From: Eledone cirrhosa
Taxonomy: Eukaryota
Reading direction: 5' to 3'
Assembly (NCBI GenBank): GCA_964016885.1
Contig: OZ024747.1
Coordinates: 23,994,001-24,058,000 of the forward strand
Length of the DNA stretch: 64,000 nt
How positions within the stretch are numbered: position 1 is the stretch's first letter; each line of letters opens with the position of its first letter. The notes beneath the pieces are model-generated. The model saw only the letters and a list, made by a program, of their open reading frames with translations. It did not search any database and was not told the DNA's origin. Made by a program: the position numbers and the translations under genes. Below, in pieces: positions 14,054 through 22,331 of the stretch.

Positions 14054-15084
14054 ATAGATGTATTCACTACCAGTTTAGAGAGTGTGCTGGGTACATTTTA
14101 TCAATGCACCAGCGTTAGCACTTTACATAGTGTACTGGATGCATTTTATCATGGCACCTGTACAAAGATTTTATAGAATGTACTGGATCTTTACAGATTT
14201 CTTTTTTCAGATAATTCATTTAATATAAAACTGATACTTGGTAACTTTTCATGCTCTCGTAGAGTATCACCTGTCTGGGAATTTTAAAGTCTAAGTCTAA
14301 ATATATTTTATGACCAGCTCAGTGGAAATGAACAAAACTAAAGCTAAATTATGAAATAAATAGAGATAGAAACTTAAATTAAATATAAATAGTTAGCTAT
14401 GTGAAACTTTTAAAATAGAGACTAGAAATACATTCTAGATTGAAAGATTCTATAATACAATTCAGAGAGAGTAAATAAATTTCAAATATAGGAAATATTA
14501 AAATATTTAAGCAAGATTGTTGTTAAGAATGAAATTACTGTGTTCTAAGTATAATATATTTATAATTATAAAATTAGATATTTCAATACATATAAAAGAT
14601 GAGTACGCAGTTAAGGTGATAATGCTGTTAGTTTTATTTTGTATTTACATTTAGTGTCCTTTATTATAACTGCTTAATAATAGCAAGCTCTCTTTTAGTT
14701 ATCCATGATATTGGGGTGTTCAGGTGTTTATTCGATAAGAGACAGTAGAGTATGGTTATATTAAAGAGTCAGGACAACTAGTTCTGGAGTCTGGAACTAG
14801 CTGTTGAAATGGCAAGAGCTCAGCCATCGGGGTCCTAACTCTTTATAATATATATGTATAATATATACATCTAACCCATGGTAGCATGGAAGATAGATGA
14901 TGATGATGAAATATATATAAGGGCAGTGGATTGGCGTAGTTTTTCAATTCATATAAGATTTTAGTTCTGTCACTCTATATTCTGAGTTAAAACTCAGCTA
15001 ATATTAGTTTTAACTTTTCCGTCTCTGACATCAATAAAATCAGTATCAGTAATACATTGAGATATGTTAATTCTCCTTCCTTAC

Positions 15085-15290
15085 CGTAGTCTTCTCTTGG
15101 TCCTTTATACTCAAAGTCTTTGCCAGCACGAAAAATCTTGAGACTTGGATAACCACTCACTTGATATCTTGATGCTGTAGTTGTTGCAACAGTAGCATCA
15201 ATTTTGGCAAGTGGTATAGGAGGAGTTTGGACAGCAAGTTTCTTGGCAGCTTTTTCAAATTCTGGAGCAAGGCGCTTGCAGTGGCCACAC
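15085..15290 (-). CDS. PDIA4: PDIA4 exon 6 (second catalytic domain)
   Basis: tttag|GTGT...TACG|gtaagg. Encodes [18 protein letters not shown]...LAKIDAT...[24 protein letters not shown]; phase 2/1. Confidence 0.95.
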
Positions 15291-15614
15291 CTAAATGAAA
15301 TCAATTTCAGATTAATAAAAGTGAGAGAACAGAGAGAATTTGTAACATTCATCCATTTACCAAAACCTTTTTTAATGTAAGTAGTGCTTATATTTACCCT
15401 CCATCATAATTCTATGCGGGAACCCTTGTTATGTTCCAAACATCAGCTTAATAATGAGACTTTAAATTCTTTGAAAATCATGGACTGTCTTTCATTAGAA
15501 ATATGGTAATGAAAGAGTGAAATAATTGTTTCTACTATTGGCACAAGGCCAGAAATTACCCAGTACATTACTGGTACTTTAAAGAGTGAAATAATAGAAG
15601 AAAATTATATTTAC

Positions 15615-17228: not shown

Positions 17229-18165
17229 CTGACAGACAAAAAAAAAAAAAATAAAAAAAATAAAAATTACCAACGAAGCATTATTAATGGCAAATCTGCA
17301 GTTTGTGTGATAGAGTTGTTGTTGGGTTGTCTGTCCATAAAACAATGGTATCTAGTATCACTTACTTTCTCTAATCATTGTGTTTGTCTATATAGGACTT
17401 ACATCCAAACAAACATTTCACTTTCTGCCTGTGTCCTGTTCTCTCCTCTCTCTCTGCTCCTTACATGTTATGTTTGTCTATATAGGGCTTACGTCGAAAC
17501 GAACAATTTTCCTCTCACTTCACCTTCTGTACATAGCTTTTCTTCTTGACTAATATGTTGGGCTTTGTTTCTATCTCTTCTTCCCAGTTGCAGCACATTG
17601 GTTTGTAGCTAATTTTATTTATTTGTAAATAGTCGTTAAACCGAGCTCAAATCAGTTCAGTATGAACAAGACAAGGTTACCTGACCTGGAATTGCTCACA
17701 ACAGGACAACTCATCTAATCCATGCTTGCGTGGAAAAATGGACGATAAACATTGATGATAATATATATGCAGGCAGATGCATAAAGACAAACACACAGAC
17801 AAAATGGTGCTGCATGCATGGTTGGATGGTATGTTGGGTGGTTACCTGGGTATCCAAGCCAAGGCCCATAATATCTGGGAGAATTCAAGTTCTGTTCTTG
17901 GGATTGAAATCCCAACAGTTCATCAGGATATCCTTGACATGCCTGGAATTAATGATATGACAATGTTTAATTTCACATGCCACCTACCAAATACTGCTCT
18001 CTGGAGACTGCTGTTTGAAATCAGTCTATATCAAAGCAGTTTATATCAAACCATTTCAAATGAGTATGTGTCAAATTTCATAGAAAAAGGCAGTTTTGTG
18101 TTGGCTGTCTGAGTGTTACCTGCTTAAACTAATTTCCGAAAGAAGAGTTGAAAAGAAGGAACTAC

Positions 18166-18288
18166 CTGGAACTTAAATCAGATTCTACAGTGGAATCAAC
18201 TTTGGCCAGTGATACTTTAGGAGTTGTAGTCTTCAACTTTTTGGCAGCATCGGCATAGGCTGGTGCCAGTCTTTTACAGTGACCACAC
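18166..18288 (-). CDS. PDIA4: PDIA4 exon 3 (first catalytic domain)
   Basis: ttcag|GTGT...CCAG|gtagt. Encodes [18 protein letters not shown]...LAKVDSTVESDLSSR; phase 2/2. Confidence 0.95.
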
Positions 18289-18789
18289 CTGAAGACAGAA
18301 ATCACAATGTAATGTAATACAGGAAAAAAAAAGGTTATTGGGGTTTGTAGAACAGTAATATGAGAGGGGGTAAAAAAAATAGAGCCAGGGTTGACTGAGG
18401 GCAGAGGTTTAAGTGGAGTGGAATTATAGAGTATAGAGGTGTAGTGGAGGAAGAGTTTGGTTAAAGGTGGGTGAGGGTAAGGTAGAGATGAAGACAGAAG
18501 AGGGTGAGGGTAAGGCAGAGTTAGGGATAGAGGTGGGATGGGCACAGAAGTGGAGTGAAGTTAAGGTAGAGATGGGGATAGCGGTAGGGTGAGGGCAAGT
18601 TAGGGGTGGGGACAGAGGTGGAATAATGGTAAGGTAGAGGCAGAAGTGGAGGTGAGAGAGGAAAGCAGGGGTGGGGACAAAGCAACAAAGTGTATATGTA
18701 GCACAAAAATAATTTGATGTATATATATATATATATATTGAAAGTGGATTCAAGTCATATATAGAGAAGAGGCTGAAATATAGTGTCCA

Positions 18790-19420
18790 TAGGCTTTGCT
18801 ATGCGACAGGCACTTTGACATCACAGATATTGTAATATCATAGAGAGTACAGTATTATAGCCACTGCGATATCAGACACTACAACATCAAACATTATCAT
18901 ACAGTCACTGTGACCTCATAGACACTGCAACATCACAGACATTGTGATATTATAGACACTGTGACCTCATAGACACTGCAACATCACAGACATTGTGATA
19001 TTATAGACACTGTGACCTCAGAAACTGTCATGTCATAGCCAATGCAAAATCAGTCACTACATCAGTCATTGTGATATAGTCACTGCGACCTTATAGTCAC
19101 TGTGGCCTTATAAACACCATGATATTATTGCTACTGCAACATCACAGATATAGTTCCTGTGACCTTATAGACACCGTGATGTCATAGCCACTGGGACATC
19201 ACAGACAGTGTGATATTGTAGTCACTGTGATGTCATAGACACAACATCACAGACACTATAACATCATAGACAGTGATATTGCAGCATCAGACAGTGATAT
19301 TATAGCCATAGTGATATCACAGACACTGCAACATCACAGACAGAGTGATATTATAGCCACAGTGATATCACAGACACTGCAACATCACACACACTGCGAT
19401 ATCATAGGCAATGTGACCAA
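18790..19420. repeat. Degenerate ~17-bp minisatellite with 51-bp higher-order unit in PDIA4 intron 2
   Basis: Units such as CATCACAGACACTGCAA, TATTATAGACACTGTGA and CCTCATAGACACTGCAA; a 51-bp block is exactly duplicated at ~18906-19018. Confidence 0.8.
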
Positions 19421-19457
19421 TAAGGGAAAACTATTTATTAATAAATGTAAAACTTAC

Positions 19458-19566
19458 CATGGTGCATAAAATTCCACAAGAACTGTATCTCTGGAGTAAA
19501 TGACATCATCAAAGTTGTTATTATTTAAGACCAATACATTATCTTCCTCAACTGGTTCATCACTAT
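19458..19566 (-). CDS. PDIA4: PDIA4 exon 2
   Basis: ctgtag|AT...CCATG|gtaagt. Encodes DSDEPVEEDNVLVLNNNNFDDVIYSRDTVLVEFYAPW; phase 1/2. Confidence 0.94.
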
Positions 19567-19825
19567 CTACAGTCAAATATAAATACTCAGTTGTTATCAA
19601 TGGATTGTGTGTTGCAGATATTAACACATTTTTTGTCTTGATCCTAATTTGAATTAATCAATTAATTTACTAAAGTTATTGTTTCATTAATATGCTATTT
19701 AAAACATAACAAATGGTTCTTATATTATATTTTGTTGAAAAATTTAAATACAAACTTTTTAAAATAGATGGTTTTATTTCATTGAACCAGTGGCAGTTTT
19801 GGGGCAGGTTGGTACCAAAAGGGTT

Positions 19826-21886
19826 TGTAGCGGTTGTCTCCCTTGTTTTGATTAGGATCTAGACGGGAGGTGGAACCCTTTCTGCAACTTCCGGTCAGAG
19901 CCCTATAAAACTAACAACTTTAAGCTTCCTTTCTCTCTTTGCCTTTTCGGCACCAGGTCAAGAGTCTTCTCATTTGGCTCTGCCATTAATTTGGCCAACA
20001 GGCGCCCTCTGCCAGCCGCGTTTGCCTGGCAATCAAAACGGTAACTACTAACTTTGTTTCATTCTAACATCTATATTTCACATGTCAAGTATACTATCTA
20101 CCGTTAATTAAATATTATATACACAAACCATGTCTCGTTTTGTTACATTCATACAACCAGTATCCTCGCTATATTGGTAACCCTGACGTGATACGAACAC
20201 GCAGCCGTTCATCGCTATAAGTGGTCACCCCCAAAAAAAGAAAAAAATAGCACATCTGGTTTTGTGAGTAACATTACGAATACACAGCAAATTTAGCGAC
20301 AAACTATGAAAATACTCAAGGACACGCACACACGCACATGTGGAATTCGCACAGACATACTTTTTCTCTCGCGCATCAATTAACTGTCGCATTTCACGAT
20401 ATATATATATGTTTCTCGTTTCTTACAACGAACTCTTTCAAAACACAAAAAAAAAAAGAAATTTGATATTCTTTAAAAAACATTTCAACAGGAACATTTA
20501 TTTTCGATGAACCATTGCCTTTTGTTCTTCGTTTTCTTCATCGTTCAAGTTTTTTGTTTTTTTTCCAAAGTTCACACCTATAATTATGCTGATTGAAGCC
20601 TTTCTTTTTCATCATTGTCACTTTCAAAATTGCACTATCATTTTCTCGCGCGTTAGAAATATTTTTTTTTTTTCCAACCTTGTATTGGCACGTGTAGGCA
20701 GCATAAATTCTCGATTCACTGAGATGTCTCTACTCACAGACAGCCGCACGCCATTTATCACCAGGGATTCTTCAGCCTTAAGCTATATTCTTCTATTTGC
20801 CGGTTTATAAATTTACAATGTAAATTTACCGTTGATAACCGCGCATTTATTAAGAATGCTTATTTCTCTGGTCGCTGGCCTCTTGACCCTTCCAGGTCAA
20901 CGCATTCTCAACATCGACCATCAACTTCGGCTGCTATTTCTAGCACTTTGTGCAACTCATTTTTTTCTAAAAAAAAATTTTTTTACTGTGAATTTAAACA
21001 CCGAATACGCTCACTCAGCGAGACAACAGCGGCAGCAACAGCAATATAACAGCAACAGCAATACATCAATACAGCTTCACCAAAGCCAGAGAATTCATTT
21101 TTGCAGCACTCTTCCTGTGAGAAAATCCATTCGGAGGTTGGAAATTTCACGATATACCACAGAACAGAAACCACCTGCATTCATTCTCTGGAACACACTT
21201 TCTTTCCTGCTGTCATGTGATTGCACACCTGTGAACTATATTTTGAACTTTGAGCTCTTCTATTACTTTTACTTTATTACATTGTATCTTTGGGTGATGG
21301 ATAGATGGATGTCCAGTCGTTCTCTGGCCAAGAGCGGTTGGCTACCTTGATATCTATCATTGATTTTTCCAAACATTCTTTTGTCGTAATTTTCATGCCT
21401 GTTACAACATTCTCGCCAACTTGCTACATATTTTCATTTCGATTTTTATACACTAAAATTCTGGCGGGAGGTTATGTAGCGGTTGTCTCCCTTGTTTTGA
21501 TTAGGATCTAGACGGGAGGTGGAACCCTTTCTGCAACTTCCGGTCAGAGCCCTATAAAACTAACAACTTTAAGCTTCCTTTCTCTCTTTGCCTTTTCGGC
21601 ACCAGGTCAAGAGTCTTCTCATTTGGCTCTGCCATTAATTTAGCCAACAGGCGCCTGGCCTTAGCCAGGCGCCCTCTGCCAGCCGCGTTTGCCTGGCAAT
21701 CAAAACGGTAACTACTAACTTTGTTTCATTCTAACATCTATATTTCACATGTCAAGTATACTATCTACCGTTAATTAAATATTATATACACAAACCATGT
21801 CTCGTTTTGTTACATTCATACAACCAGTATCCTCGCTATATTGGTGACCCTGACGTGATACGAACACGCAGCCGTTCATCGCTATA
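19826..21886 (+). mobile_element. Young non-autonomous LTR retroelement (Gypsy-like termini) in PDIA4 intron 1
   Basis: Direct repeats 19826-20219 (394 bp) and 21475-21886 (412 bp) with termini TGTAGCG...CGCTATA. 4-bp TSD GGTT on both sides. Degenerate PBS TGGTCACCCCC after the 5' LTR; purine tract GGCGGGAGG before the 3' LTR. The 1255-bp interior has no gag/pol motifs. Confidence 0.92.
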
Positions 21887-22331
21887 GGTTAATACAGATT
21901 TCAAAGCAGAGATATTAGGTTTAATACTAGTTGATAGTATCATGATAATGTTTTTCACAAGAGTGTTTATGGTATAATTTTGAACTTGGATTTCGGTTGA
22001 ACAGAAATGACAGAACTACTCAACAAAAAAATGAGTGTTACTCATCAACAGTAGAAATGAATGTTACTAAACAAGAACAGAAATAATTGTTTCTAATTAA
22101 TTACCTAATTGAAAGTGCTACTCAAGAACAACAGAAATGGCCATGCTACTCAACTACATAAATGACAGTGCTACTCAACTACAGAAGTGATATTGCTACT
22201 CAAAAACAACAGCAGAACTGAGTGATATTCCTCCTCTACAAGTTTCAGTAATATACTTGTAGTTTAAGTATCTAGTCTATTGCTTATACAATACTATAGC
22301 ATCAAGTTTGTCAACTTAATTCCACCTATAC

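What the first reader, a model, noticed from the sequence alone, without database searches (positions are those of the whole stretch)
21831..21886. LTRs contain a captured 32-nt antisense copy of tRNA-Trp with a mismatch exactly opposite m1A58
Seen: in both LTRs (20175-20206 and 21842-21873) an inner LTR-like end CTCGCTATA is followed by TGGTGACCCTGACGTGATACGAACACGCAGCC, then a second end ATCGCTATA that is the one actually integrated. Known (recalled vertebrate tRNA-Trp): the reverse complement of the 3' end including CCA is TGGTGACCCCGACGTGATTCGAACACGCAGCC, whose first 18 nt are the classic Trp PBS; plus-strand synthesis normally stops at m1A58, nt 19. The 3' LTR copy matches 30/32, with a CpG-type C>T and a T>A at nt 19. 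Inference: RT read through m1A58 with misincorporation and the primer copy became fixed inside U5. The external PBS (TGGTCACCCCC) is degenerate, so the element may use an unusual intra-LTR or extended priming mode.
Basis: partly seen in the sequence, partly recalled or inferred. Interest (0 to 1): 0.72.

Follow-up and report, generated by a model that had tools for sequence, protein, structure and literature searches.

The report
Over-long tRNA-Trp primer site fossil
A protein-less jumping gene carries a primer site that matches 32 instead of the usual 18 bases of the host's tryptophan tRNA, likely a fossil of reverse transcriptase overrunning its primer; in nearly all copies it lies outside the terminal repeat, and this copy is a rare, probably mis-primed exception.

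Summary
The block is real: an antisense copy of host tRNA-Trp positions 76-45, with CCA and an A opposite A58. It is not an LTR feature of the family. In 28 of 30 and about 57 of 58 copies the 3' LTR stops at the inner CGCTATA, so the block is the ordinary primer-binding site plus a 14-nt extension. That site is the one used: about 8% of copies are corrected to the tRNA, and 16 rearranged copies hold exactly 18 tRNA bases. The window copy is one of 7 long-ended copies found; its ends are confirmed by an empty allele. Read-through is supported: other LTR families here carry independent tRNA copies of 37-49 nt with a mismatch hotspot at nt 19 (p about 3e-4). The likely helper is a CsRn1-type Gypsy family with a plain 18-nt site. 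The closest known element is the 4-nt lentiviral primer over-extension sequence. The scan noted similar cases before on other DNA (e1-9869716, e1-7807674, e1-9554435).

The parts
19822..19825 (+). left target-site duplication GGTT
   Evidence: empty allele
19826..20173 (+). 5' LTR (348 nt; lacks one 18-nt repeat unit present in the 3' LTR), ends at the family's true end CGCTATA
20175..20192 (+). PBS1: 18-nt tRNA-Trp primer-binding site, majority allele with two mismatches (nt 5, nt 10)
   Evidence: used as primer site
20193..20206 (+). 14-nt extension matching tRNA positions 58-45; A at 20193 lies opposite A58
20207..20221 (+). duplicated LTR end (second CGCTATA) plus AG spacer
20222..20231 (+). 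PBS2: decayed duplicate primer site (9 of 10 match; perfect 12 nt in older copies)
20232..21462 (+). non-coding internal region; 20778-21268 is 90% identical to the 3' non-coding region of the coding family P
   Evidence: no Pfam hit in 3 of 3 ORFs
21463..21474 (+). polypurine tract and spacer
21475..21840 (+). 3' LTR proper (366 nt)
21841..21886 (+). 46-nt overhang peculiar to this copy: T, 32-nt tRNA block (21842-21873; A opposite A58 at 21860), second LTR end used for integration
21887..21890 (+). right target-site duplication GGTT

Best explanation
The block is the tRNA-Trp primer-binding site of a non-autonomous Gypsy element, lengthened from 18 to 32 nt, likely by one ancestral plus-strand run through the tRNA's methylated A58, and it lies inside the repeat only in rare copies such as this one, which were probably primed one unit too far downstream. 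Steps. (1) Shown: family anatomy is LTR, T, PBS1, 14-nt extension, second LTR end, PBS2, non-coding body, PPT, LTR. (2) Inferred: an ancestral plus-strand strong-stop DNA copied the primer to position 45, put A opposite m1A58, then jumped back into U5 and recopied the old LTR end and old PBS, which decayed into PBS2. (3) Shown by fossils: today priming is at PBS1 and plus-strand synthesis stops at 18 nt. (4) Inferred: the enzymes come from the CsRn1-type family P. (5) Inferred: in about 1-2% of events the minus strand starts 46 nt downstream, more likely at the second unit of a parent whose 46-nt unit is tandemly duplicated (about 55%) than at PBS2 (about 35%), and integrase cuts at the second CGCTATA. 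The long end would not be inherited, because U5 at the 3' end is not transcribed.
For: Short 3' ends in 28 of 30 and in all 56 sampled copies that had a 3' LTR. PBS1 alleles in the first 100 of 448: 82 with two mismatches, 9 and 1 with one, 8 perfect. 16 rearranged copies hold exactly 18 tRNA bases, 15 of them perfect. LTR-LTR differences are 0.085 per site 8-14 nt from the inner end against about 0.009 upstream (52 pairs). In CCA-bearing tRNA copies at other LTR ends nt 19 is not T in 5 of 33, against 5 of 429 cells at 13 other non-CpG A/T positions, Fisher p = 2.7e-4; they end at 37-42 nt in 21 of 42 rows and at 48-49 nt in 3, two of these with a mismatch opposite G37, and most have unique downstream flanks. 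Older copies have a perfect 12-nt PBS2. The same double-site layout occurs in metagenome loci L254/L268 and L263/L264. 2 of 5 complete long-ended copies have a tandem unit, against about 7 of 448 overall (p about 0.002). Family P shares 519 nt at 90% and forms chimeras with this family.
Against: No family copy has a tRNA tract beyond 32 nt, and none has T at nt 19 in an intact block, so read-through is not seen in this family today. Family P also has A at nt 19 after a plain 18-nt site, so the A could be inherited from the element rather than misincorporated. Most read-through copies have the correct T (28 of 33). The sequence context reported to favour dATP is m1A-U (PMC4787781); the host tRNA has A58-A59. 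The 33 rows include five related copies of one family, so they are not all independent. Three of five complete long-ended copies, this one included, have a single 5' unit, which the tandem model explains only with an extra collapse or intermolecular step. m1A58 and m1G37 in this host's tRNA-Trp were not measured.
Confidence: 0.75

Rival explanations
1. The extension is a working, selected primer over-extension sequence: plus strands that run past A58 still pair with it, and it is re-copied from the tRNA in some cycles.
For: Coding sister families carry fixed extensions of 32, 33 and 39-40 nt in which nt 19 varies among copies (A/T, A/C, T/C). One corrected family copy (L152) has G at nt 19 and a tRNA-variant base at nt 30. 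Extensions occur before gag or pol in metagenome loci (5 of 21 loci). Precedent: lentiviral over-extension sequence (PMC13191261, section 10).
Against: Family P does without it. In this family 16 of 16 rearranged copies stop at 18 nt and 0 intact blocks have T at nt 19. In one sister family the extension has drifted from the tRNA in many copies. Conservation in a young non-coding family (median LTR divergence 1.1%) needs no selection.
Confidence: 0.3
2. One reading: the tRNA copy is fixed inside U5, the outer end is the family's LTR end, and priming uses PBS2 or an intra-LTR mode.
For: True of this copy's anatomy and of 6 other long-ended copies with TSDs. PBS2 can still pair weakly (-14.3 kcal/mol against -27.7 for PBS1). 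Occasional PBS2 priming remains a possible source of the long end.
Against: About 98% of 3' LTRs end at the inner CGCTATA. tRNA correction and 18-nt copies map to PBS1; no tRNA-corrected PBS2 was found among the 32 of 39 hits inspected (low power). The window's two blocks differ at nt 5, which single-molecule PBS2 priming does not predict.
Confidence: 0.05
3. The extension came from DNA-level capture of a tRNA gene or from pairing of the whole 3' half of the tRNA at initiation, and the A at nt 19 is an ordinary point mutation.
For: A 32-nt duplex is much stronger (-55.9 kcal/mol) and could offset the two PBS1 mismatches. One genomic tRNA-Trp copy has A at that position (L172).
Against: The block begins with the complement of CCA, which the genes lack. 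nt 19 is the hotspot in independent copies. Read-through products of variable length are common at LTR ends here.
Confidence: 0.12

Closest known systems
Primer over-extension sequence of lentiviruses and spumaviruses (Muthuswami 2002, not seen; as described in PMC13191261 section 10, read in full, and PMC8599865, passages)
   Same: tRNA-complementary sequence directly after the 18-nt PBS, in register past A58
   Different: about 4 nt there (to position 54-55); 14 nt here (to position 45) and up to 22 nt in sister families; found in Gypsy elements; no function shown here
CsRn1-clade Ty3/Gypsy elements (PMC3630058, PMC2582038, PMC6238403; passages)
   Same: tRNA-Trp PBS and 4-bp TSD; family P has the CHCC Gag motif, GPY motif and Gypsy domain order
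   Different: the window element encodes nothing; extended and doubled primer site not mentioned in the passages read
Mouse ETn/MusD primer sites (PMC7472051, passages)
   Same: non-autonomous family whose commonest PBS has two mismatches, with copies reverted to the tRNA sequence
   Different: no extension or doubled LTR end; reversion there is speculated to be 50:50, here about 8% are fully corrected
Drosophila Gypsy second tRNA-Lys,2 binding site (PMC1635307, abstract only)
   Same: a second tRNA-binding site in the element's RNA
   Different: that site is at the RNA's 3' end; here both sites are adjacent at the 5' end and the 3' LTR normally lacks the block

Membership tests
CsRn1-clade Gypsy (window element) | PBS complementary to tRNA-Trp | tested here: met
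CsRn1-clade Gypsy (window element) | 4-bp TSD | tested here: met
   46 of 52 pairs; window GGTT
CsRn1-clade Gypsy (window element) | CHCC Gag, GPY integrase, Pol order PR-RT-RH-IN | tested here: not met
   no coding remnant: 0 Pfam hits in 3 ORFs; so filed only as a non-autonomous dependant
CsRn1-clade Gypsy (family P, likely helper) | CHCC Gag, GPY motif, Gypsy domain order, Trp PBS, 4-bp TSD | tested here: met
CsRn1-clade Gypsy (family P, likely helper) | RT tree placement with CsRn1 and Kabuki | not tested
   no reference sequences were fetched
Primer over-extension sequence | tRNA-complementary tract directly 3' of the 18-nt PBS, in register | tested here: met
   13 of 14 nt match
Primer over-extension sequence | rescues second-strand transfer of over-extended plus strands | tested here: inconclusive
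   one suggestive copy (L152); 16 of 16 rearranged copies stop at 18 nt
LTR with a captured structural-RNA copy | captured RNA copy present in both LTRs of typical copies | tested here: not met
   absent from about 98% of 3' LTRs
m1A misincorporation fossil | host tRNA-Trp carries m1A58 | not testable with these tools
   A58 is in the genes; methylation assumed from PMC13191261

The most novel reading that the evidence does not exclude
CsRn1-type Gypsy elements routinely let plus-strand synthesis overrun the tRNA-Trp primer and keep a 14-22 nt over-extension sequence that accepts such strands and is re-copied from the tRNA, so animal genomes hold a readable fossil map of where reverse transcriptase stalls and errs on a modified tRNA in vivo (A58, G37, near G26); overrun followed by a jump back into U5 repeatedly creates doubled LTR ends and primer sites.
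Probability: 0.35. Interest if true: 0.62.

Novelty: new variant of a known kind. Interest (0 to 1): 0.4.

Why it matters
m1A58 is taught as the stop that defines an 18-nt primer site. This genome holds dozens of germline records of the stop being passed, with errors and end points that line up with tRNA positions usually modified. That gives an in vivo test of plus-strand stop leakiness in a Gypsy clade and a way to infer tRNA modification sites from assemblies. For annotators, a doubled LTR end can mislead LTR calls, as it did here. The claim of a tRNA copy fixed inside the LTR does not hold for the family.

Tried and rejected
ARAGORN on the window: 0 tRNAs. Rfam over the element: one chance-level hit. 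Pfam on 3 internal ORFs: none. Folding U5 to PBS2 gave a U5-PBS hairpin but z = -0.99, not significant. Sister families with extensions (called F, E, B) share only the tRNA block with this element and were rejected as helpers. A G-first bias in long-end TSDs (5 of the first 6) weakened when L309 (TGAG) was found; not pursued. A spacer-length test to tell PBS2 priming from tandem-unit priming failed, because older copies with a 2-nt spacer end at the same TA. No RNA holder listed. Literature searches for an extended PBS in LTR retrotransposons found no such paper; the library lacks most subscription journals, Lauermann and Boeke 1997 was not held, and the PBS figure of PMC2582038 (image) and the sequence supplement of PMC3630058 were not seen and may show such extensions. 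The host was not identified by my calls.

Full report
Observation. The window holds a 2,061-nt LTR element at 19826-21886 with TSD GGTT. A contig of run X1 shows the empty site, skipping 2,065 bases with 4 shared letters, so the outer CGCTATA is the integrated end of this copy. The blocks lie at 20175-20206 and 21842-21873. Host tRNA-Trp(CCA) genes were found by pattern search and ARAGORN. Against gene L099 the 3' block differs at nt 10 and nt 19, the 5' block also at nt 5; nt 19 is opposite A58 and nt 32 opposite G45. The leading TGG answers the CCA that the genes lack. A 29-nt pattern from the block matches 762 places at up to 3 mismatches; the reversed control matches none.

Where the LTR ends. 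Of 30 best-matching PPT-plus-LTR loci, 28 end at the inner CGCTATA; the others are the window and the middle LTR of a tandem array. For a less biased sample I fetched 60 of the first 67 listed places of 448 exact family matches. Fifty-two gave LTR pairs: 46 short with TSD, 6 short or rearranged, none long. Four more had short 3' ends on inspection and four had no 3' LTR in range. The seven places left out were two already held or nested (one of them short), two facing each other, and three in L309, which is long-ended; a fair rate is therefore about 1 in 58. A genome-wide pattern for the outer end not followed by A gave 14 matches; it misses A-starting TSDs and mutated copies. In all I found five complete long-ended copies (window, L178, L179, L186, L309) and two solo long LTRs (L180, L181), each with a 4-bp TSD. 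So the block is the family's primer site, outside the LTR.

Which site primes. In the first 100 of 448 matches the 18-nt site has two mismatches in 82, one in 10 and none in 8, the pattern expected when the tRNA is copied into the plus strand and sometimes wins; mouse ETn/MusD show a similar picture (PMC7472051, passages). Sixteen rearranged copies carry exactly 18 tRNA bases after the inner end, 15 of them perfect (16 of 22 hits; read). Differences between the two LTRs of a copy peak 8-14 nt from the inner end (0.085 per site against about 0.009; alignment-end and CpG effects not removed). PBS2 pairs weakly and is a perfect 12-nt match in older copies, so it is a decayed duplicate. Intact blocks have A at nt 19 in the 448, G in 5, T in none.

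Origin of the extension. A search for CCA-bearing copies running past nt 32 gave 35 hits. Dropping two that do not start with TGG, nt 19 is not T in 5 of 33, against 5 of 429 cells at 13 other non-CpG A/T positions (Fisher p = 2.7e-4). Five of the 33 belong to one inherited family. Match lengths are 37-42 nt in 21 of 42 rows and 48-49 nt in 3; the other rows were shorter or cut by my simple extension rule; two long copies are mismatched opposite G37. Copies that share an LTR mostly have unrelated downstream flanks, so they are separate events. HIV studies report minor stops beyond A58, including at position 37 (PMC13191261, section 10), and m1A causes both arrest and misincorporation (PMC4787781, passages). 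That G37 and G26 are methylated in this tRNA is recalled, not tested. Against the misincorporation reading: the host context is A58-A59, not the m1A-U context that favours dATP, and family P has A at nt 19 without any extension.

Helper and relatives. A chimeric copy (L344) led to family P: about 6 kb, CHCC Gag, PR-RT-RH-IN Pol with GPY, 4-bp TSD and an 18-nt Trp site, the features given for the CsRn1 clade (PMC3630058, PMC2582038, passages). The window's internal region matches P's 3' non-coding region at 90% over 519 nt, and P pol occurs between this family's LTRs in L407 and L410. No RT tree was built. Three other coding families carry fixed extensions of 32-40 nt with variable nt 19. One metagenome scan gave 21 loci with the extension (T 14, C 6, G 1 at nt 19; several near-duplicates; one may be a tRNA gene), 5 with gag or pol similarity to P, and two pairs with the same doubled end and site. 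CsRn1 is reported as common in cephalopods (PMC6238403, passages).

How this copy got its long end. The right end of the cDNA is set by where the minus strand starts, so priming must have been 46 nt downstream (established mechanism; inference). Two of five complete long-ended copies have a tandem 46-nt unit at the 5' end, against about 7 of 448 overall (p about 0.002), and in L309 the 3' overhang shares a private change with the first 5' unit. The window has one 5' unit, and its two blocks differ at nt 5, which fits two templates better than one molecule primed at PBS2. PBS2 priming is not excluded: no corrected PBS2 was seen, but fewer than one was expected.

Novelty and verdict. It works like the lentiviral primer over-extension sequence but is three times longer and of unshown function; it is not an LTR-embedded tRNA. 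Six searches of the held library found no description of such extensions in LTR retrotransposons; unseen supplements and subscription papers may hold one. Other papers opened: PMC8599865, PMC11251516, PMC3587641, PMC6894440, PMC13282606 (passages), PMC1635307 (abstract). Earlier scan notes describe similar cases and were used only as leads. New variant of a known kind; interest 0.4.

Noticed in passing
L223-L252, L066, L081, L085, L167-L177: At least ten LTR-end groups carry CCA-bearing tRNA-Trp copies of variable length, mostly followed by unrelated flanks; ends cluster near G37 and at positions 28-29.
   Followed up: partly
window 20160-20166 and family copies L315-L374: A hypervariable patch 8-14 nt from the LTR end (30 variants of a 9-mer in 60 copies) that often differs between the two LTRs of one copy, hinting at error-prone initiation and intermolecular plus-strand transfer.
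   Followed up: partly
L154, L156, L163, L165, L344, L408: Recurrent inverted junction in which an 18-nt tRNA copy joins the reverse complement of the sequence just after the extension through GAT(G) microhomology; L344 and L408 join family P to this family.
   Followed up: partly
L151-L166: G follows the 18-nt tRNA copy in 10 of 11 non-A rearranged copies and in 5 of 5 intact non-A blocks; may reflect purine addition opposite m1A58 or microhomology.
   Followed up: partly
L182 (four units), L183-L186, L309, L373: Tandem duplication of the 46-nt unit at the 5' end.
   Followed up: yes
L091-L095: Clusters of tRNA-Trp(CCA) genes on contig C4, with C/T variation at position 56-57 of the T loop; one gene elsewhere (L084) has the A67 allele matching the element's nt 10.
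   Followed up: partly
window 14987-15403 and 18162-18560 (minus strand): Thioredoxin-domain exons of a disulfide-isomerase-like gene next to the insertion; the insertion is polymorphic (empty allele in run X1).
   Followed up: partly
window 18808-19469: 17-nt minisatellite just upstream of the insertion.
   Followed up: no
L254/L268, L263/L264: Metagenome contigs with the same layout of extended PBS, duplicated LTR end and second PBS.
   Followed up: partly
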